In this document: positions 2,607 through 42,121 of the stretch, one piece after another
How the letters are laid out: each line of letters starts with the position of its first letter
How positions within the stretch are numbered: position 1 is the stretch's first letter
DNA from: a virus
Lineage: Duplodnaviria; Heunggongvirae; Uroviricota; Caudoviricetes
Length of the DNA stretch: 46,253 nucleotides
IMG/VR virus record: IMGVR_UViG_2721755496_000003
Span: 1 to 46,253 of that record
Reading direction: 5' to 3' (one strand)
The notes under the pieces: model-generated
Seen by the model: the letters and a program-made list of their open reading frames with translations, nothing else
The model's database searches: none
Told to the model about the DNA's origin: nothing
Made by a program: the position numbers and the translations under genes

Positions 2607-5600
2607 TTACGCCTTCGACATCCAGATAACTGTCACTGCATTACCTGAAACCGACACCGTCACGGGTGTCCCCGCATTAAGCCTGAACACTTTGATCCAG
2701 ATTGTGCTGTAGACAGGTCTGTAACTGCCGCCACCATGCCCCGGACTTCCGCCGCTCCAGACACTGTCTGTCTGCATCCTTGAAAGGATCGCAGAGGAAA
2801 CCGGTGTCTGCTCGTTACCGTTAAAGTACAGGTGTTCAGCACTACCCAGCATCACCAGATTCATGGTAAATACCTGAGCCGGTATATACACACTGTTACC
2901 GTTAAGCACATACGTCTTCGCAATATCTCCGGTTATCTGTGCTGCAGATAAATTTCCCTTAATCACACAGTCCTGGTTTATCGTCACATTGTTGAGCGTG
3001 CCTGAACTGGCGGTGATACTGCCGCTGATATCCGCATTTTTAGCGGTCAGCTTTCCGTCCGGAGTCAGGGAAAATGCAGGGGGATTACCGCCGCTGGTAA
3101 TGGTGGGAGCCGTCAGGCGTTTCAGGAACACGTCGTTCATGAATATCTGATCGCCCTGTGCCACAAACATCGGCGTTGAGTTACCGTTTGCCTGGTCAAT
3201 AAACGCGATACGGTTGGCGGCGACAAGAAACTCGCTCAGTTTTCCTTCTTCCGTCTCCTCCATGCTGAGGCCAATCCCGGCAACATAATGTTTACCGTCT
3301 TCGGTCTGCTCAATTTTGACGCCCCACATGGCATTCCATTTATCGTTAGCGTCTTTCCACTGTTTCGAGAACTCATCAAGCCTGCTGGCGTTATCCTCTG
3401 TCAGTTCGAAATTCTCCAGCAGTTCCCTGCCAAGATGCGTTTTATTAATCAGCCCCTTGTAAAAATTCAGATAACCTTCCGCATCATCGCTGGGCTGACC
3501 GACGGCCTCCACAAATGCCGACTTACCCACGGTGTTAACACTGCGAACGTAAAAATAATAATCATGGCCTGGCCTGATATTGATACTGGCGGCTATCCAG
3601 TACAGCGCCGTGCCAAGATAGCGGGCTGTGGTTTCAACCTGCCTGATTTCCGCAATCCGCTTTTCCGAGAACCAGAACTCAAACTGTACCGTCGGATCAT
3701 AAACGGCAAGATGCGGCGTGGCGGTTATCTGAAAATAGCCCGGCGTCAGCTCAATCCGCGACGGCGCTGCCGGTGCGGCAATCCGGAACGATACCGATGC
3801 CGGATCGCCCTGTTGCCCCCAGGCATTTACCGCCCGGACTGTCAGCCTGTAGTTTCCCAGCGCCAGTTGCGTGAAGCGGTATGTGGTTTCCGTCGTCCGG
3901 GCCGTGCTGACCAGCCGCTCACTGCCGTCATCCGCTGCCACGGTCAGGCGAAGCAGGAAGCTCACCCCCTTCACCACCTTCGGCGTGTCCCATCGCGCCA
4001 GCACCTGATATTCCCCGCTGTCTGCGGTGACTTCGGCGGTCAGGTGCTGCACCGCTGGCGGCGTGACACCATTCACCGTGCCGCTCTGGTCGCCGTCAAA
4101 GTGCGCCCCGTTATCCACGATGGCCTCTTTTTCCGGTACATGCTGCACGGCGGTGATGGCATACGTGCCGTCGTCGTTCTCACGGATACTCACGCAGCGG
4201 AACAGGCGCTGGCGCAGCGTCGGCAGCTTCAGCCCCCACACGCTGTATTCAGCAACACCGTCAGGAACACGGCTCACTTTCACCTTCACGCCGTCGGTGA
4301 CGGACTGAACCTCCACGCTGACCGGATTGCCACTTCCGTCAACCAGGCTTATCAGCGTGGTACCGGAGGATGGCAGAGTGATTTCACGGTCGAGCGTCAG
4401 CGTCCGGGTCTGGCTGTTTACCGCCAGCACGCGCCCGCCGATGCTGATACCGGCATAGTCATCATCGCAGATTTCAATGACATCGCCCGGTACATGGCGA
4501 AGCCCTTCAGCACCCACGCTGAAATCCACGGTCTGCGTCTCCAGCAGTTCCGTTTTAATCAGCCACAGCCCGGCGCGGTGTGCCTGCCCCCGGCTGGTAC
4601 AGCCAAAGGCATCCATCTTCGTGACATTACGACCGTAACGGGCAATGGCCTGCGTATCTTCAACAAGCTCTGTCGCCGTCTCCCAGCCGTTGTTCGGGTC
4701 AATCCAGTTCACCTCAACGGCATTATGGCGGTCCTTCAGGGCGCTGAAGCTGTAGCGGAACGGCGCGCCATCATCCGGCATCACCACATTACTGCGGTTA
4801 TAGGTCCACACCTTATCTGATGGTCGGTCCTGCACGAACGTCAGCGTCTGCCCGTTCCATACCGGCATACAGCGCATCGCCGAGCAGAAATCACTGAGCA
4901 CATCCCACGCCTTGCGCTGTGTGCTCAGGTACGCATTACAGGTGATGCGCGGCTCCGTGCCGCCAAAGCCGTCCGGCACTGACTGGTCGCAGTACTGGCC
5001 GATGACATACAACGCCCATTTGTCCACATCCGCCGCACCAAGACGTTTTCCCATGCCGTAGCGCGGATGGGTCAGCATATCCCACAGACACCAGGCCGGG
5101 TTGTTGCTGTATGCCGGTTTAAACGTTCCGTCCCAGATACCGCTGTATTGCCGCGTCTGCGGGTTATAATTCGACGGCACCTGCAGAATACGCCCGCGCA
5201 GATGATAATTACGGCTCACCTGCTGGCTGCCGAACTGCTCCGAATCCACCTGCACGCCGACCAGTGCCGTGTTCGGGTAGCTCTGTTTCACATCGATGAT
5301 TTCGGTGTATGACGACCAGAGCGTTTTGTTCTGCAGCTGCTCTGTGGTGCTGTCCGGCGTCATTCTGCGCATCCGGATATTAAACGGGCGCGGCGGCAGG
5401 TTATCCACCACCACCGAGGCCAGATACTGCGAGGTGGTTTTGCCCTTAATGGTGATGTCTTTTTCCGTCACCCAGCCACCGTTACGCTGTATCTGAACCA
5501 GCAGGCGGACTTCCGACGGATTCCGGTCCCCCTTTGAGGTGGTTTCCACCAGTGCCTGCACACCGAAGGTAAAGCGCAGACGGTCGATGTTTGCCGACGT

Positions 5601-37619: not shown

Positions 37620-38427
37620 GGCTCACCCCCTTGCTGACTGGCTTAACCTGCGCCCTGACGTGATTTACGTGACGGGCGAATTTCTGCTCCCACTGAACCT
37701 GCGTGAAAACTTTACCCTCCGCTTCCCAGTAGTCCCGGAAGGCGACAAGTTCAGCAGGTGTAAATTCAGGCTCCGGCAGAGCCACTCCCCACAGTGCAGC
37801 CCGCCGTCGAAAATCCGGCGACGGATGCCAGCCACCGGCCATCGGAAACTTCCCGATGGGTTCGCTCAGGCTTTCCAGGTAATCAGGTTCCGCTGCCTGC
37901 AACGGCGTACCGTTCGACTCACTGGTCGGAGCACTCTCGCGCACGCGCGCGTAATGTGTGGGGTTTAATTCTTTTAGATCTGTATCTTTATTAGTTGCTT
38001 TTGTGTTGGCATCATGTTCAAGCACAACACCAACATCTGTTTGAACACCTGTTAAATTTAGTTCGCGATTTGTTTGAACATCCGCTTCCTTTCTGTTTCT
38101 TCTGGCCTGAACGGATGCTTTCCCTGCTGCTGATTTTTTGGTTAATTTTTCCCTGACTGATGCCAGATCTTCCTCAATCCGAAGATGCACCCATTCATCG
38201 CCGTTATCGCAAAAAAACTCCCGCAAGGATGGTTCCACATCAGCCCATCGCTCGTTAGTCAGACGGGCAATTTTTGCCAGCCTGTTTTTGGGTATTGGCT
38301 TCCCTGTTTGCCAGTAATTGAACATCAGCAACAAATACGCACCGTGCTCCTCTGCTGACAAATGCATGGTGTCAGCCAGGTAATCAGCTATGTACAGTTG
38401 CATGTATGGTAATGCGGCCATGTTCAC
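37408..38427 (-). CDS. Replication initiator, YdaU-type (DUF1376 N-domain plus DnaT-like C-terminal region)
   Basis: N-terminus MAALPYMQLYIADYLADTMHLSAEEHGAYLLLMFNYWQTGKPIP typical of DUF1376; position after ydaT as in Rac. Confidence 0.6.
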   Translation of the reverse strand: MNMAALPYMQLYIADYLADTMHLSAEEHGAYLLLMFNYWQTGKPIPKNRLAKIARLTNERWADVEPSLREFFCDNGDEWVHLRIEEDLASVREKLTKKSAAGKASVQARRNRKEADVQTNRELNLTGVQTDVGVVLEHDANTKATNKDTDLKELNPTHYARVRESAPTSESNGTPLQAAEPDYLESLSEPIGKFPMAGGWHPSPDFRRRAALWGVALPEPEFTPAELVAFRDYWEAEGKVFTQVQWEQKFARHVNHVRAQVKPVSKGVSHAAAPGGTASRAVREIRAAREQWERENGFVSDGNGVEAVGAHGGGLFEPLDPEERGRTFEALDCTDWRDD

Positions 38428-38500
38428 CTCATCTGGTGCCGAACCTTCCTCTGGTTATAATCTGTGCTCCCCCAATCAACAGAACCAGAGGAGGTTCGAC

Positions 38501-38896
38501 ATGGATTTTGCAACTATCACAAGTAGTGTTGTGTTGAGTGCATGTGTTGCTGGCGTGGTTTCGCTGGTTAATGGTGCCTGGCAACTCAAATCGGAACGAA
38601 CCATTGAAGCGCAACGCCGGGCTGCTGAAGCCAGGGCTAAAATAAGAGAAATGGCTCTCACCCTCGCATTGAAAGAATGGGAACTTCACCAAACCATATC
38701 GAAGACAAAGGGGTATGGTGTCAGCGGACCGGAAGTTTACGTCTTTCGATACTTTCGTATGCTCAACCTGATGGAAGAAAACAAATTCACGATTGAAAAT
38801 CTCAGACTGATCCAGTACGACTCCATGTGCGCTGTTGCAGCAATTCAGGCTGAGATCGAGCGATATCGGGAGAAAAACGGCCTCCCGATGCCATAA
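38501..38896 (+). CDS. Membrane-anchored hypothetical protein (131 aa) transcribed antisense to the replication operon
   Basis: TATAAT at 38456-38461, GGAGG 6 nt upstream of ATG 38501; N-terminal TM helix (ITSSVVLSACVAGVVSLVNGAW) then helical domain. Confidence 0.45.
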   Translation: MDFATITSSVVLSACVAGVVSLVNGAWQLKSERTIEAQRRAAEARAKIREMALTLALKEWELHQTISKTKGYGVSGPEVYVFRYFRMLNLMEENKFTIENLRLIQYDSMCAVAAIQAEIERYREKNGLPMP

Positions 38897-38900
38897 ACAA

Positions 38901-39149
38901 TCAGCGTTTTTCATCTTTCCAAATCCTCATATCAGGCTTGCGCCCGATGAACCGACGAAAACAATTTAAAATCCACCGGGTGAAGTAATCCCTGAAACCA
39001 AAGAGATACCAGGTGAACAGATTCACGATAAAATGTCCGGTCAGAGCCCCACCGATACCACAGGCAAGAACAGTAAAAAAATCATGTAGATTCACATGCC
39101 CCCCGTCATTGTTAACGCCATCCGTGCTTTTAGTGCACCACCACGGCAT
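38901..39149 (-). CDS. Small membrane protein (82 aa) following ydaT
   Basis: Hydrophobic segment FFTVLACGIGGALTGHFIVNLFTWYLFGF; overlaps the ydaT 3' end by 20 nt. Confidence 0.3.
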   Translation of the reverse strand: MPWWCTKSTDGVNNDGGHVNLHDFFTVLACGIGGALTGHFIVNLFTWYLFGFRDYFTRWILNCFRRFIGRKPDMRIWKDEKR

Positions 39150-39555
39150 TACCTGCCGGGCCGCCGCGATTCATCTGGTCATACAAAACGACCGCTGACG
39201 CAACAAAATCGTCGACTTCCTTCACCAGCCGATCCCGCCGTTCGACAATCTCCCGGTAATACTCAGAACTGTGACTGCGCATACGGGCCACCAGCAAAGT
39301 CGGCATTGCCTTTTCGATCGCAGGTAACAACGCCTGAATTTTTTCAACCGCATCAGGAGTGTCTTTCTCCACCCAGCGGAAAATTTTCTGTGTATTACGA
39401 GCCAGGGCTTCCGGATGGCTGTCTTCGTACAGTTCCGGGAACGTCATTCCCAGTTCGAAATAAGCCTGGGTTATTCCAGCTGCTGGAACTTTTTCACCGT
39501 CCGGATACGCCCAGGCATTCATCGCCATGCGGATGTGCTCATGCTTGATTTTCAT
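39130..39555 (-). CDS. YdaT-family protein (CII-like regulator of Rac-type prophages)
   Basis: 141 aa; position and size match Rac ydaT after ydaS. Confidence 0.6.
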   Translation of the reverse strand: MKIKHEHIRMAMNAWAYPDGEKVPAAGITQAYFELGMTFPELYEDSHPEALARNTQKIFRWVEKDTPDAVEKIQALLPAIEKAMPTLLVARMRSHSSEYYREIVERRDRLVKEVDDFVASAVVLYDQMNRGGPAGNAVVVH

Positions 39556-39820
39556 GAATCAAGCTCCTAGAAAATGGTTGTGTTAACGTTTTGGTATCTT
39601 CCAGCTCGGGCCAAATATTCATCCAATCAAAAGGCCTTAGTTGCTGACGTGTAACTTCACCATTACTGGCTCGCTCAATAAGGACACATAACGATGCCCC
39701 TAGCACTTGACCTTTACTCAATGCCTTTCTTAGATAACCGATGCTGGTACCACACTCGTATGCAAACATACGCTGTTCATCTGACGAAAGAGAATTGAGA
39801 AATATTCTTAATTCTTCCAT
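39539..39820 (-). CDS. YdaS-family HTH protein (Cro-like)
   Basis: ...MFAYECGTSIGYLRKALSKGQ...LIERASNGEVTRQQLRPFDW, YdaS-type motif; divergent from the repressor. Confidence 0.65.
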   Translation of the reverse strand: MEELRIFLNSLSSDEQRMFAYECGTSIGYLRKALSKGQVLGASLCVLIERASNGEVTRQQLRPFDWMNIWPELEDTKTLTQPFSRSLIHENQA

Positions 39821-39920
39821 AGCTACTCCTTAGTAAACACAGCAAAGAATACCCTCAGGTAAACAAAAGTCAATACCCACAGGTTGTTTACCTTGCGGTA
39901 ATTGCATCTATTATTTACCT
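39821..39920. promoter_or_regulatory. Divergent promoter/operator region between the Cro-like and repressor genes
   Basis: TACCCTCAGGTA (39850-39861), TACCCACAGGT (39874-39884) and GGTAAACAA/TTGTTTACC inverted repeat. Confidence 0.5.
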
Positions 39921-40340
39921 ATGGACAAATATGAATTTAGACGACAGCAACTCATCAAAATTCGTGATGAGAAATGCGATGGTAAAGCGGTTAACGTGGC
40001 CAGAAAGATCGGGCGCGAGCCTTCTTATGTATCAAGAATGTTGTACCCAGAGGGGAAAAAGGGAAAAAAACGGATCGCCGATGATATGGTGGAGATTATC
40101 GAAGAGTCCTTTGGGTTACCCCGGGGATGGATGGATGGTATCGTTTCATCATCAACGAACACAGCCTCCAGTTATGAAACAAGGGTTCTAACGCCACGAC
40201 AACGTATTTTTTTAGATCTCTTAGACGAACTGCCAGAAAGTGAAGCGGATAACTTATTAAAAACTCTTGAAGAGAAAAAACAGTATTACAATATGATCTA
40301 CGAAGAAATCCGTAAAAAGAAAGCACAAAACGCATCATAG
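39921..40340 (+). CDS. Prophage repressor (HTH, no S24 peptidase domain; RacR/DicA functional analogue)
   Basis: 139 aa with N-terminal HTH (AVNVARKIGREPSYVSRML); divergent from ydaS. Confidence 0.6.
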   Translation: MDKYEFRRQQLIKIRDEKCDGKAVNVARKIGREPSYVSRMLYPEGKKGKKRIADDMVEIIEESFGLPRGWMDGIVSSSTNTASSYETRVLTPRQRIFLDLLDELPESEADNLLKTLEEKKQYYNMIYEEIRKKKAQNAS

Positions 40341-40383
40341 CTCACCAAACAACCAGTCACCAGTTAAGACACCGCAAAAAAAT

Positions 40384-40420
40384 TACCCATGGGTATTTAC
40401 TTTTTAAATACCCATGGGTA
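40384..40420. promoter_or_regulatory. Two perfect 12-bp palindromes TACCCATGGGTA (candidate operators for the leftward-equivalent operon)
   Basis: Exact palindromes at 40384-40395 and 40409-40420, related to the half-sites in the 39821-39920 region. Confidence 0.4.
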
Positions 40421-40605
40421 TCCTTCTTTTCATACCAACCCACCCCGCCCCACAGAACGCAGGGCAATACTTCGAGTTACCAGGCAGTGGTCAGGGGTTA
40501 AGTAGCCAGCCCGAGGCGTATGAACATGACGGCGGGAACGCTTTGTATAACAGCGCAGCAGGTTTTTAGTTCCGCGACCCGGCGTTAAGGGTAAATGAGG
40601 TCAAC

Positions 40606-40758
40606 ATGGATATGCTCAATCTTGGCAACAATGAATCTCTGGTGTGCGGAGTATTCCCCAACCAGGACGGCACATTCACCGCCATGACGTATACCAAAAG
40701 CAAAACGTTTAAAACCGAATCTGGCGCGCGTCGCTGGTTAGCAAGAAACTCTGACTAA
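40606..40758 (+). CDS. Small protein (50 aa), YdfA-like position
   Basis: GAGG RBS 8 nt upstream of the ATG; not in ORF track. Confidence 0.35.
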   Translation: MDMLNLGNNESLVCGVFPNQDGTFTAMTYTKSKTFKTESGARRWLARNSD

Positions 40759-40873
40759 TGAAATCTGGTAATTAAGGAATCCTCCACGGGGGGGGAAGTG
40801 GTGCACACGCGCCGGATACAAGCAAGCATCCGGCATGCTCTTTAACAATCTGGATATCCATAACAGTAAAAAT

Positions 40874-41365
40874 CTACAGATTGCCGTTCAGTTTTCTGGC
40901 CAACTCTTCAATAGATGGAGGCGATACGTAATCCGGATTTTTATTCATAAGAAACTGATTTTCACAGTATAGGCACCTGCTTTTATGAAAAAACTCACAT
41001 TCTCTAACCGGGAATGGCTGAAGTATCGATACTATCTTTTGTCCAAAACATTTTGGACAAAGATGCATGATTATGCTGCCGCCGTTCACGGTTACCTCCT
41101 TCGAGTACACAAAAGTTCCCGACTCAAGTTGGCTAAGGATATAACCTTCCGTCTGAGCCTCAAAGTTTTCAAATTCTGCAATTTTAGCTTTGAGAGAAGC
41201 ATTTATTTCTTGATAAGTGCCCACCAGCTCAACGAGAGACACGCATTCGCGCTGAATAGATGCAAGCTTTGAGTTCAGTTCACCAATAGCCGCATTTACT
41301 TCAGCTTGAGTTTTTGCCTCGTTCATTAGTTTTGCAATCTGGGCGGTTTCACGAATAGCCGTCAT
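40874..41365 (-). CDS. Hypothetical coiled-coil protein with C-terminal four-cysteine zinc-ribbon-like motif, antisense within the dicB-type operon
   Basis: About 164 aa from ATG 41365 (ORF open to 41671; no clear SD); CPKC...CLYC motif; AT-rich. Confidence 0.45.
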   Translation of the reverse strand: MTAIRETAQIAKLMNEAKTQAEVNAAIGELNSKLASIQRECVSLVELVGTYQEINASLKAKIAEFENFEAQTEGYILSQLESGTFVYSKEVTVNGGSIIMHLCPKCFGQKIVSILQPFPVRECEFFHKSRCLYCENQFLMNKNPDYVSPPSIEELARKLNGNL

Positions 41366-41699
41366 TGCTGCCGTTAATTCAGCGATCACATTCAATACTC
41401 TTATTGTTGTTGGGGATATCCAGATTAACAAGATCCTTGTTGTTGGGGAATAACGGGGACCACCTCGCCTGACGTGGTAAAAAGCAGGCACACAACACGA
41501 AAGCGCACGGCGAGGTTGCTGGTTCATAGATAGCCTGTCGTTAAATTTTCGTCGACCGTGCGCTTCCGGTTGTGGCAATCCGCGAAATGGTGCGGCGGTA
41601 AGTATGGCGGGGTTATTCCTTCTCCGTTGAGTACACCGGGTTGTCAGGTTGACCATACGCTTAAGAGACAACCACGCTGCAACGCCCTCTGTTATCCAT

Positions 41700-41758
41700 T
41701 TTCTGGTGACGTTTGGCGGTACCAGTTTTACTCCGTAACTGCTCTGCCGCCTTTTTTA
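41700..41758 (+). ncRNA. dicF: DicF-like sRNA (ftsZ-targeting antisense RNA) with intrinsic terminator
   Basis: tttctggtgacgtttggcggtaccagttttactccgtaactgctctgccgcc followed by tttttt; matches E. coli DicF as recalled with 2-3 substitutions. Confidence 0.7.
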
Positions 41759-41932
41759 AAGTGAATTTTGTGATGCGGTGAATGCGGCTCAGCGCACGCG
41801 GAACAGTTAAAACAAGCGGTCTTTTACGGGCGTAACGGGAATGCTCTGTATCCGGCGTTAATTGTTAACTGGTTAACGTCACCTGGAGGCACCAGGCACT
41901 GCATCACAAAATTCATTGTTGAGGACGCGATA

Positions 41933-42121
41933 ATGGAAACGTTATTACCAAACGTTAATACGTCTGAAGGTTGTTTTAATATTGGCATTCAGCTCAGTAA
42001 TAAAGACTTCACTGATGATGCCATTAATATGAGGAAATATGAGCCTTATCTTCTGAATGATAATTCCATACTTTCAAGAATTGCTCTTCTTCAACTTGGC
42101 ATTTTTGGAGAACAGCGATGA
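41933..42121 (+). CDS. dicB: Cell division inhibitor DicB
   Basis: 62 aa, METLLPNVNTSEGCFNIG... closely resembles the K-12 DicB N-terminus; immediately downstream of DicF. Confidence 0.7.
   Translation: METLLPNVNTSEGCFNIGIQLSNKDFTDDAINMRKYEPYLLNDNSILSRIALLQLGIFGEQR

What the first reader, a model, noticed from the sequence alone, without database searches (positions are those of the whole stretch)
40874..41671. Zinc-ribbon/coiled-coil gene inserted antisense inside the dicB-type operon, with upstream direct repeats
The plus strand carries a Qin-like array (repressor, ydfA-like ORF, DicF sRNA, dicB, ydfD-like). The roughly 900 bp where ydfB/ydfC would sit is instead occupied by a minus-strand gene of about 164 aa with a heptad-rich helical N-terminal half and a C-terminal CPKC...CLYC four-cysteine motif. 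It is AT-rich relative to its flanks. Two copies of TTGTTGTTGGGGA (41404-41416 and 41437-41449) lie in its 5' leader, and the ORF stays open far upstream of the first ATG with no obvious SD, so the start and regulation are unclear. The slot next to the repressor is where lambdoid phages keep exclusion and abortive-infection genes (rexAB, sieB), so this is a candidate lysogen-expressed defence or regulatory protein that I cannot assign to any family.
Basis: partly seen in the sequence, partly recalled or inferred. Interest (0 to 1): 0.62.

Follow-up and report, generated by a model that had tools for sequence, protein, structure and literature searches.

The report
Rip1-family defence gene in sieB slot
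The antisense gene is a diverged relative of Rip1, a recently described prophage protein that kills infected cells by forming a membrane pore around rings of another phage's packaging proteins. It sits in the prophage position where phage lambda keeps its exclusion gene sieB and has the same upstream control region, so it is a new member of a known kind, not a new system.

Summary
The gene is real, but it runs 40874-41389 on the minus strand (171 aa, GTG start). It is not the 265-codon open frame, and not 164 aa.

A profile of 39 homologues matches solved Rip1 of phage HK446 (PDB 9OOX) at E=9.5e-24. An AlphaFold model (pLDDT 91) finds only that structure in the PDB. All four zinc-ribbon cysteines are invariant, and dN/dS is 0.16-0.33.

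Like HK446 rip1, HK630 hkaP and lambda sieB, the gene lies antisense inside the early-left operon, next to the repressor.

Its upstream 100 nt are more conserved than the gene itself (85% against 65%). They begin with a 30-nt block that is nearly identical upstream of sieB in lambda and P22 and of HK446 rip1.

P22's annotated sieB promoter, RNA start and published sas antisense RNA map onto this region. On the plus strand, one forms a hairpin with a GGGG loop that has compensatory changes.

K-12 Qin carries a deletion scar of this cassette; ydfB/ydfC is a separate indel.

Verdict: a new, untested clade of a known defence family with a known type of regulatory module. Defence activity, trigger and regulation are inferred, not shown.

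The parts
40874..41389 (-). Rip1-family gene, 171 aa, GTG start. The N-terminal part is two helices (residues 2-24 and 28-79). The C-terminal part is a beta domain with a four-cysteine zinc ribbon (C111, C114, C139, C142).
   Evidence: Profile against PDB 9OOX Rip1: E=9.5e-24. hhalign probability 98.8%. Foldseek E=6e-7 with TM 0.72. dN/dS 0.16-0.33.
41398..41402 (-). Weak Shine-Dalgarno-like AAGAG, ending 8 nt before the GTG start.
   Evidence: An AAGAG/GAG at the same distance is conserved in the window clade, P22 sieB and HK446 rip1. Its function is inferred.
41404..41416 (.). Direct repeat copy 2 (TTGTTGTTGGGGA on the plus strand, TCCCCAACAACAA in gene sense). It lies at the inferred 5' end of the mRNA.
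   Evidence: In P22 the annotated sieB RNA start is the base just before the second copy of its own repeat, ACCCCTACAG.
41424..41429 (-). -10-like hexamer GTTAAT (4 of 6). The inferred transcription start is about 41416-41419.
   Evidence: Position transferred from the P22 annotation (sieB promoter 29690-29720, RNA start 29727) through alignment A2. The sigma-70 consensus scan found nothing here, so this is inference.
41437..41449 (.). Direct repeat copy 1, overlapping the -35 position of the inferred promoter. On the plus strand it is the 5' arm and loop of a hairpin.
41434..41459 (+). Predicted plus-strand RNA hairpin UCCUUGUUGUU-GGGG-AAUAACGGGGA, with the GGGG loop at 41445-41448.
   Evidence: fold; this helix has 8 pairs, 4 of them with changes on both sides, and 95.6% of cells are paired. 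Its many G-U pairs would be A-C mismatches on the gene-sense strand.
41460..41489 (.). Conserved 30-nt block GCCTGCTTTTTACCACGTCAGGCGAGGTGG (gene sense). The same block lies upstream of sieB in lambda and P22 and upstream of rip1 in HK446, and it forms the 3' end of the P22 sas antisense RNA.
   Evidence: (165 phage records). The distance from the block end to the start codon is 71 nt here and 72 nt in P22.
41385..41495 (+). Inferred sas-like antisense RNA region, or an equivalent segment of the early-left transcript, complementary to the ribosome-binding site and leader of the gene.
   Evidence: Homology to the P22 sas sequence published in PMC13397905 and alignment A2. No promoter was found and the folding z-score is only -0.6. 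Not shown.
41414..41426 (.). 5' arm of the inverted repeat (GGATATCCAGATT on the plus strand), overlapping the inferred -10 and RNA start.
   Evidence: the motif occurs only at these two places in the window; conserved across genera.
40837..40859 (.). Conserved element just after the stop codon. It reads GGATATCCAGATTGTTAAAGAGC in gene sense and contains the 3' arm of the inverted repeat (40847-40859).
   Evidence: Present in most of the 30 distinct flank variants. No compensatory changes with the 5' arm.
40811..40834 (.). GC-rich hairpin GCCGGAT...ATCCGGC. It stands where other loci have a canonical terminator (GCGTCC...GGGCGC followed by a T run) after the gene. There is no T run here.
   Evidence: K-12 Qin has the equivalent hairpin.
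40606..40758 (+). ydfA-like DUF1391 gene, the first gene of the early-left (dicB-type) operon. It converges on the Rip1-family gene.
   Evidence: E=1e-29.
41701..41752 (+). DicF small RNA.
   Evidence: 70.5 bits, full length.
41933..42121 (+). dicB.
   Evidence: E=2.4e-33.
39921..40340 (+). Prophage repressor candidate, in the dicA/racR position.
   Evidence: synteny. No Pfam hit.

Best explanation
Window 40874-41389 (minus strand) encodes a 171-aa member of the Rip1 (ring interacting pore) family. It sits in a complete-looking lambdoid prophage of an Escherichia coli-like host.

By homology, the protein is made in the lysogen and is harmless on its own. When a superinfecting phage assembles ring-shaped packaging proteins (small terminase or portal) late in infection, the C-terminal zinc-ribbon domain should bind around the ring. 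The N-terminal helices of about 12 copies should then form a membrane pore that kills the cell before progeny are released. This is abortive infection.

The gene is expressed from a sieB-type module that lies antisense inside the early-left (ydfA-dicF-dicB-exo) operon:
- a weak promoter whose -35 position and RNA start coincide with the two direct repeats;
- a short leader with an AAGAG ribosome-binding site;
- a conserved GTG start.

The opposite strand of this leader corresponds to the P22 sas antisense RNA. The likely consequence is that the prophage's own early-left transcription, or a sas-like RNA, shuts the gene off when the prophage itself goes lytic.

Shown here: homology, fold, conservation, gene position, and homology of the regulatory region.
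Inferred: defence activity, trigger, pore formation, transcription start, antisense control.
For: Homology and fold:
- phmmer of the protein against PDB sequences hits only Rip1 9OOX (E=3.4e-7).
- A profile of 39 homologues gives E=9.5e-24 over profile positions 6-151 against chain residues 16-160 of 164.
- hhalign probability is 98.8%.
- The AlphaFold model (pLDDT 90.9) has 9OOX chains as its only significant Foldseek PDB matches (E=6e-7, probability 1.0, TM 0.72 by target length; the next hit has E=0.17).
- The 9OOX chain is identical to HK446 gp37.
- CxxC...CxxC is conserved in the window protein, HK446, HK630 and JBD30.

The gene is under selection and belongs to a large family:
- 109 homologues across Enterobacterales.
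- 3324 representative clusters at E<=1e-3.
- dN/dS 0.16-0.33.

What Rip1 does is taken from PMC13434031, PMC13601566 and PMC12908700.

Position:
- Antisense in the early-left operon in HK630, HK446, PhiR49_1 and in several of the enterobacterial genome loci, where exonuclease and/or repressor homologues flank it on the opposite strand (L008, L009, L012, L014, L015, L018, L020).
- This is the same slot as lambda sieB.

Regulatory module:
- The leader is 85% identical across genera against 65% for the coding sequence.
- The block is identical upstream of lambda sieB, HK446 rip1 and HK630 hkaP, and differs at one base upstream of P22 sieB.
- P22's annotated promoter and RNA start, and the published sas sequence, map onto it.
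- The plus-strand hairpin has compensatory changes and G-U pairs.

The prophage has its own small terminase, large terminase and portal, so some form of self-silencing or self-insensitivity is needed.
Against: - Identity to characterised Rip1 proteins is only 27-30%, so trigger and activity could differ.
- PADLOC (2023), Pfam and NCBIfam give no hit.
- The hydrophobic moment of the N-terminal helix (0.44) is like HK446 Rip1 (0.42) but is not above shuffled sequence.
- No sigma-70 consensus promoter was found on either strand.
- The predicted antisense RNA does not fold better than shuffles (z = -0.6).
- There is no conserved internal start comparable to P22 esc.
- The primary Rip1 paper (Patel et al. 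2026, Nature 651:1060) could not be read, so it is unknown whether this clade was already tested.
Confidence: 0.72

Rival explanations
1. The protein has the Rip1 fold but a different job. It could be an exclusion protein that senses another oligomeric phage structure, or that acts without forming a pore, for example by blocking DNA packaging through sequestering terminase.
For: Identity to tested Rip1 proteins is only 27-30%. Known Rip1 proteins already differ in trigger: portal for Pseudomonas phages and small terminase for coliphages. The amphipathicity of the N-terminal helix is not statistically distinctive.
Against: The homology runs the full length, including the N-terminal helices. The size is the same (164-171 aa), as is the single-gene antisense arrangement in prophages.
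Confidence: 0.15
2. It is a zinc-ribbon, coiled-coil regulator of the prophage itself. It might bind nucleic acid to control the dicF/dicB operon or the lysis-lysogeny decision, and would then not be a defence protein.
For: Zinc ribbons often bind nucleic acids. The gene lies next to the repressor and converges on the operon that makes DicF and DicB. A 13-bp inverted repeat brackets the gene.
Against: No DNA-binding family matches. The only structural relative is Rip1. The same protein family occurs in Pseudomonas Mu-like phages, between a DNA-binding (small-terminase-like) gene and the large terminase gene and far from any repressor. The gene is absent from most dicB operons, which work without it.
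Confidence: 0.05
3. It is a chance or decaying ORF on the antisense strand of the early-left operon, with no product.
For: There is no strong ribosome-binding site and no consensus promoter. The start codon is GTG. The frame stays open well upstream of it.
Against: There are 109 full-length homologues with 39-97% identity and invariant cysteines. dN/dS is 0.16-0.33. The fold prediction is confident. The GTG start and AAGAG are themselves conserved.
Confidence: 0.01

Closest known systems
Rip1 of Escherichia phage HK446 (gp37, PDB 9OOX, in complex with T6 small terminase; Patel et al. 2026)
   Same: - Length: 164 aa against 171 aa.
- N-terminal helices followed by a C-terminal CxxC...CxxC beta domain.
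- Full-length profile homology (E=9.5e-24) and a fold match (TM 0.72).
- A single gene antisense in the early-left operon of a lambdoid phage.
- The same 31-nt upstream block, with a pair of direct repeats before an AAGAG site.
   Different: - Only about 27% identical.
- The direct repeat is ACCCCTACAG, not TCCCCAACAACAA.
- ATG start, not GTG.
- No inverted repeat bracketing the gene.
- Sits between N and an anti-restriction/cIII gene, not between ydfA and dicF.
- Activity is shown for HK446 Rip1 and not for this clade.
Pseudomonas Rip1-type proteins of JBD30/DMS3/MP38-like phages
   Same: About 30% identity over 89% of the length. Same size and cysteine motif. Antisense to its neighbours.
   Different: Located between a DNA-binding (small-terminase-like) gene and the large terminase gene in a Mu-like phage, not in the early-left operon. 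No sieB-type upstream block was seen there.
SieB/Esc with the sas antisense RNA of P22, and sieB of lambda
   Same: - The same slot and orientation.
- The same conserved upstream block, with the same spacing to the start codon (72 against 71 nt).
- Paired direct repeats at the -35 position and at the RNA start.
- An AAGAG site.
- The published sas sequence is the reverse complement of this region.
   Different: The cargo protein is unrelated. There is no SieB Pfam hit and no membrane-spanning segments. There is no conserved internal esc-like start. Beyond the block, the repeat and stem sequences differ.
HkaP of HK620/HK630/HK629
   Same: A Rip1-family protein (30% identity) in the same antisense slot, with the same block.
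   Different: A different clade. No function has been published, as far as the papers I could read show.
dicB operon of the K-12 Qin prophage (ydfA-ydfB-ydfC-dicF-dicB-ydfD)
   Same: ydfA, the region before dicF, dicF, dicB and ydfD are 87-90% identical at the DNA level where they align.
   Different: Qin has ydfB and ydfC and lacks the cassette. It keeps a junction, aGGATATTTCC-ctg-AAAAGTCAGACCATAAC, that joins the 3' repeat arm to the end of the block. This is a deletion of about 620 bp.

Membership tests
Rip1 (ring interacting pore) family | Sequence homology over the full length to an experimentally characterised Rip1 | tested here: met
   phmmer E=3.4e-7. Profile E=9.5e-24, positions 6-151 against chain residues 16-160 of 164. 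hhalign probability 98.8%. tblastn also finds JBD30, DMS3 and HK620 homologues.
Rip1 (ring interacting pore) family | Fold: N-terminal helices plus a C-terminal ring-binding domain | tested here: met
   AlphaFold pLDDT 90.9. Foldseek against the PDB gives 9OOX chains only (E=6e-7, TM 0.72 by target, 120 columns).
Rip1 (ring interacting pore) family | Conserved CxxC...CxxC motif | tested here: met
   C111, C114, C139 and C142 are invariant in 39 homologues. The motif is present in HK446, HK630 and JBD30.
Rip1 (ring interacting pore) family | Amphipathic N-terminal helix able to enter the membrane | tested here: inconclusive
   The highest hydrophobic moment is 0.44 at residues 7-24. HK446 Rip1 has 0.42 at the same place. 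Shuffled sequence gives 0.40 +/- 0.08.
Rip1 (ring interacting pore) family | Single prophage gene, not toxic alone, expressed in the lysogen | tested here: inconclusive
   A single antisense gene in an intact-looking prophage. Expression and toxicity are not testable here.
Rip1 (ring interacting pore) family | Assembles as about a 12-mer around small terminase or portal rings and forms a pore; abortive infection phenotype | not testable with these tools
   Known for HK446 and Pseudomonas Rip1 only through PMC13434031 and PDB 9OOX.
sieB-type promoter / sas antisense module (P22, lambda) | Conserved block GCCTGTCTTTTAACCAC(A/G)TCAGGCTCGGTGG about 70 nt upstream of the start codon | tested here: met
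   Window 41460-41489. Alignment A2. The block is identical in lambda, HK446 and HK630, and differs at one base in P22. Spacing is 71 nt against 72 nt.
sieB-type promoter / sas antisense module (P22, lambda) | Promoter and RNA start at the positions annotated in P22 | not testable with these tools
   Only positional transfer from the NC_002371 annotation. The consensus scan finds no sigma-70 site.
sieB-type promoter / sas antisense module (P22, lambda) | Structured antisense RNA across the leader | tested here: inconclusive
   The three-hairpin layout is shared with P22 sas and HK446. 96% of cells are paired, and 6 pairs have changes on both sides against 1.4 in shuffles. However, z = -0.6 for the window sequence, and the structure was derived from the same sequences.
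sieB-type promoter / sas antisense module (P22, lambda) | Internal in-frame start producing an Esc-like inhibitor | tested here: not met
   No conserved internal Met beyond position 9 in alignment A1.
SieB protein family | Homology to SieB | tested here: not met
   No SieB family among the Pfam or PHROG hits. The protein is predicted soluble, helical plus beta.
Qin/Rac-type dicB operon | ydfA, DicF, dicB and ydfD in order on one strand downstream of a repressor | tested here: met

The most novel reading that the evidence does not exclude
The conserved block, the paired repeats and the antisense hairpins may form a portable, cargo-independent control cassette of lambdoid prophages. Such a cassette would keep an abortive-infection gene on in the lysogen and switch it off by antisense RNA when the carrier phage itself grows lytically.

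The cargo would be freely exchanged. Cargos seen here are SieB/Esc, three Rip1 clades, and unknown 63-90-aa proteins in Rac-SA53, SfII and a Hafnia phage.

In the window clade, the extra 13-bp inverted repeat that brackets the gene would be a second functional site of this cassette: a convergent promoter, a protein-binding pair, or an exchange junction.

If the cassette idea is right, the block is a sequence tag for finding new single-gene defence proteins.
Probability: 0.3. Interest if true: 0.6.

Novelty: new member of a known kind. Interest (0 to 1): 0.45.

Why it matters
- **An unannotated gene gets a function.** The gene is present with its flanks in at least 337 of 5426 complete E. coli genomes, including O157:H7 and O55:H7, and is annotated everywhere as hypothetical. 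This analysis gives it a likely function. It also extends the Rip1 family to a distinct enterobacterial clade that Pfam, NCBIfam and PADLOC 2023 miss.
- **Old and new biology connect.** The 1993 P22 sieB/sas regulatory region is the same module that drives the experimentally studied HK446 rip1 and this gene. That suggests how a prophage could avoid being killed by its own ring-sensing toxin.
- **A search handle.** The shared block offers a simple way to look for other cargos in the same slot.
- **K-12 Qin explained.** The unexplained ydfC-dicF spacer of K-12 Qin is a deletion scar of this cassette.

Tried and rejected
- **Family libraries.** Pfam, NCBIfam and PADLOC gave only noise for the protein. 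PHROGs gave phrog_1244, function unknown.
- **RNA families.** An Rfam E-value scan of 38000-44000 found nothing in the leader. It found only DicF, a sub-threshold STnc100 match and a spurious mir-2041 hit.
- **Promoters and terminators.** The sigma-70 and terminator consensus scan found no promoter on either strand near the gene.
- **Pairing of the mRNA's 5' and 3' ends through the 13-nt inverted repeat.** Rejected as unsupported. Variants of the 3' arm (GGATACCC, GGACATCC) are not compensated in the 5' arm. By analogy with P22, most of the 5' arm would lie upstream of the RNA start.
- **Invertible segment flanked by the repeats.** No locus showed the gene inverted relative to the leader. A pattern search that required the leader followed by the gene in the same orientation matched 89 of the sequences then held, and the listed top E. 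coli matches are single-piece. Inversions were not searched for exhaustively.
- **An Esc-like internal start.** Not conserved.
- **The 265-codon frame as the true protein.** Rejected because of 1-nt indels in the leader and the conserved MIAEL start.
- **The conserved leader as a pseudoknot** (CCAC/GUGG interleaved with GCCUG/CAGGC). The stems are essentially invariant, so there is no evidence either way.
- **Hydrophobic-moment test.** Not discriminating.
- **The primary Rip1 paper.** It could not be retrieved by DOI, and no other search turned it up.
- **A literature search for hkaP and WP_000559929.** It gave nothing relevant.
Full report
**What is there**

The window from about 39.1 kb to its right end is the immunity and early-left region of a Rac/Qin-like lambdoid prophage. 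In order it holds:
- a ydaT-like gene (39130-39555, minus) and a cro/ydaS-like gene (39539-39820, minus);
- a repressor candidate (39921-40340, plus);
- ydfA/DUF1391 (40606-40758, plus);
- the minus-strand ORF under study;
- DicF (41701-41752, Rfam 70.5 bits), dicB (41933-42121) and a DUF1482/ydfD-like gene (42118-42279);
- an 812-aa exonuclease (42394-44832), an excisionase and an integrase.

The rest of the window carries small terminase, large terminase, portal and major head genes on the minus strand. The prophage therefore looks complete. The exact protein is found in NCBI draft assemblies with the same neighbours. The closest complete genomes are E. coli O55:H7 and O157:H7, at 97%.

**The gene**

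The open frame runs to 41671, but the gene is 40874-41389:
- All 39 aligned homologues begin MIAEL at the codon that is GTG 41389 here.
- GTG is the start codon in 15 of 17 loci from different genera.
- PGAP annotates the same 516-nt gene (WP_000559929.1, hypothetical).
- Upstream of it, homologues differ by single-base indels, so that part is not translated.

The family has 109 close relatives in Enterobacterales and 3324 representative clusters at E<=1e-3 in the large library. Q46, G91, Y95 and the four cysteines are invariant. dN/dS against the window sequence is 0.16-0.33. This is a real gene under purifying selection.

**What the protein is**

Pfam, NCBIfam and PADLOC give nothing. PHROGs gives phrog_1244, function unknown.

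Three lines of evidence point to Rip1:
1. Against PDB sequences, the single protein hits one entry, 9OOX 'ring interacting pore 1 (Rip1)', at E=3.4e-7. The 39-sequence profile hits it at E=9.5e-24 over essentially the whole length. hhalign gives 98.8% probability.
2. An AlphaFold model built from the alignment (pLDDT 90.9) has helices at 2-24 and 28-79, then a beta domain carrying the zinc ribbon.
3. Foldseek against the PDB returns the two 9OOX Rip1 chains (E=6e-7, probability 1.0, TM 0.72 by target length) and nothing else below E=0.1.

9OOX is Rip1 of Escherichia phage HK446 bound to the T6 small terminase. Its sequence is HK446 gp37.

According to a 2026 review of Patel et al. (Nature 651:1060), Rip1 is a single prophage protein that is harmless alone. 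Twelve copies assemble around the 11-mer ring of a phage small terminase (or, for Pseudomonas phages, the portal), and its amphipathic N-terminus then forms a pore that kills the infected cell. Relatives are widespread in Proteobacteria, mostly in prophages. I could not read the primary paper.

The window protein is about 27% identical to HK446 Rip1 and about 30% identical to HK620/HK630 HkaP and to the JBD30/DMS3 proteins. It therefore represents a separate clade.

**Position**

- In HK446 and HK630 the Rip1-family gene is antisense between N and the cIII/kil genes.
- In PhiR49_1 it is antisense next to cI.
- In several of the enterobacterial genome loci it is antisense between repressor and/or exonuclease homologues.
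- In lambda, sieB occupies exactly this antisense slot between ral and N.

**The upstream region and the direct repeats**

The 100 nt before the start codon are 85% identical on average across genera, against 65% for the coding DNA. The proteins are only 41-59% identical.

The region begins with a 30-nt block (window 41460-41489). The consensus block is identical upstream of lambda sieB, HK446 rip1 and HK630 hkaP, and differs at one base upstream of P22 sieB; the window's copy differs from the consensus at a few positions. It is present in 165 phage records.

The P22 RefSeq record annotates the sieB promoter just downstream of the block. It places the sieB RNA start at the base before the second copy of a direct repeat, ACCCCTACAG. 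The P22 sas antisense RNA sequence published from small-RNA sequencing (PMC13397905) is the reverse complement of block, both repeats and the sieB ribosome-binding site.

The window has the same layout with the same spacing (block end to start codon 71 against 72 nt), but a different repeat, TCCCCAACAACAA. By positional transfer:
- repeat copy 1 (41437-41449) overlaps the -35 position;
- GTTAAT (41424-41429) is the -10;
- the RNA would start at about 41416-41419, immediately before repeat copy 2 (41404-41416);
- AAGAG (41398-41402) is the weak ribosome-binding site.

It is still inference, because the consensus promoter scan finds nothing.

**Antisense strand**

Folded as plus-strand RNA, the window, P22 sas and the HK446 equivalent share a layout of three hairpins. 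The middle hairpin presents a GGGG loop and is built from repeat copy 1.

On an alignment of 24 sequences from all clades:
- 96% of cells pair;
- 6 of 17 pairs show changes on both sides, against 1.4 in shuffles (0 of 500 shuffles reach 6);
- slid controls pair at 33-41%.

The middle helix contains many G-U pairs, which would be A-C mismatches in gene sense. If the structure is real, it therefore works on the plus strand, the strand of the early-left transcript.

Caveats: the structure was derived from these same sequences, the block stems hardly vary, and the window RNA does not fold better than shuffles (z = -0.6).

The likely reading is that early-left transcription or a sas-like RNA silences the gene when the carrier phage grows lytically. 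That would matter for a toxin triggered by terminase or portal rings, which this prophage also makes. No esc-like internal start is conserved.

**Relation to Qin**

Against K-12 Qin:
- ydfA aligns (40568-40751).
- ydfB and ydfC are simply missing right after it.
- 40768-40833 aligns weakly to the sequence after ydfC.
- 40834-41479 has no counterpart.
- 41480-42037 aligns at 90%.

At the junction, K-12 reads aGGATATTTCC-ctg-AAAAGTCAGACCATAAC. This is the 3' repeat arm joined to the end of the block. Qin therefore lost the cassette by a deletion of about 620 bp; the window did not gain it in place of ydfB/ydfC.

In complete E. coli genomes, 337 of 5426 carry at least 80% of window 40760-41700 (the gene plus its flanks) in one piece and 4169 match only part of it. 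Other occupants of the region include ydfB/ydfC and unnamed ORFs.

**Unexplained**

A perfect 13-nt inverted repeat, AATCTGGATATCC / GGATATCCAGATT, brackets the gene at 40847-40859 and 41414-41426. It extends to 26 nt at 81% and occurs nowhere else in the window.

The 3' copy, with GTTAAAGAGC and usually a terminator, is conserved after the stop codon across genera, but it shows no compensatory changes with the 5' copy. I read the pair as two inverted copies of one roughly 24-bp site. The 5' copy coincides with the inferred -10 and RNA start. The function of the 3' copy is unknown.

The same block also precedes other small antisense genes: Rac-SA53 rac10, SfII_36 and Hafnia MIFENG_33. One Kosakonia locus has two modules in tandem, and one Trabulsiella locus has a truncated N-terminal paralogue in front of the full gene. 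This suggests a reusable module with exchangeable cargo.

**Verdict**

The gene is a new, untested clade of the Rip1 family, carried in the classical sieB slot with a sieB/sas-type control region.

This is a new member of a known kind, of moderate interest. The most novel part is the shared regulatory cassette, which remains a hypothesis.

Noticed in passing
window 40384-40420: Two perfect 12-bp palindromes, TACCCATGGGTA, lie 13 nt apart between the repressor gene and ydfA. The scan calls them a bidirectional terminator and Rfam gives a spurious mir-2041 hit. Similar TACCC-N3-GGT(A) half-sites occur in the cro-repressor intergenic region (39850-39910). They are more likely the left operators of the early-left promoter.
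   Followed up: partly
window 40847-40859 and 41414-41426: A perfect 13-nt inverted repeat brackets the gene exactly and is unique in the window. The 3' copy is conserved across genera after the stop codon, but shows no compensatory changes with the 5' copy. Function unknown.
   Followed up: yes
L003 (K-12 Qin) 3640-3680, against window 40850-41495: The ydfC-dicF spacer of K-12 Qin contains a junction, GGATATTTCC-ctg-AAAAGTCAGACC. It looks like a deletion scar of the whole Rip1-family cassette.
   Followed up: yes
L111 1501-1807, L112 1501-1762, L114 1501-1872: The conserved sieB-type block also precedes unrelated small antisense ORFs: Rac-SA53 rac10 (77 aa), SfII_36 (63 aa) and Hafnia phage MIFENG_33 (90 aa). 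These are possible unknown exclusion genes in the same slot.
   Followed up: partly
L011 4698-4934 and 5001-5516; L021 4369-4721 and 4900-5522: In a Trabulsiella locus, a 78-aa ORF resembling only the N-terminal helical half of the protein sits between a copy of the block and the full-length gene. In a Kosakonia locus, two block-plus-cargo modules stand in tandem, the first with an unrelated ORF of about 94 aa.
   Followed up: no
window 41389 and homologous loci: The non-ATG start (GTG in 15 of 17 loci, TTG in one) and the first four codons, GTGATCGCTGAA, are conserved at the nucleotide level across genera. This is consistent with selection for low translation, or with an overlapping antisense constraint.
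   Followed up: partly
window 41750-41965: A sub-threshold match to the Rfam sRNA STnc100 (34 bits, gathering score 47) covers the dicF-dicB spacer and the start of dicB.
   Followed up: no
window 42394-44832: The 812-aa early-left exonuclease combines an N-terminal exonuclease VIII (RecE-like) segment with a C-terminal Rv2179c-like 3'-5' exoribonuclease domain.
   Followed up: no
L106 1061-3516: In one E. coli assembly the identical gene lies directly next to excisionase and integrase. dicB, ydfD and the exonuclease are absent, so the cassette survives deletions of the operon around it.
   Followed up: no
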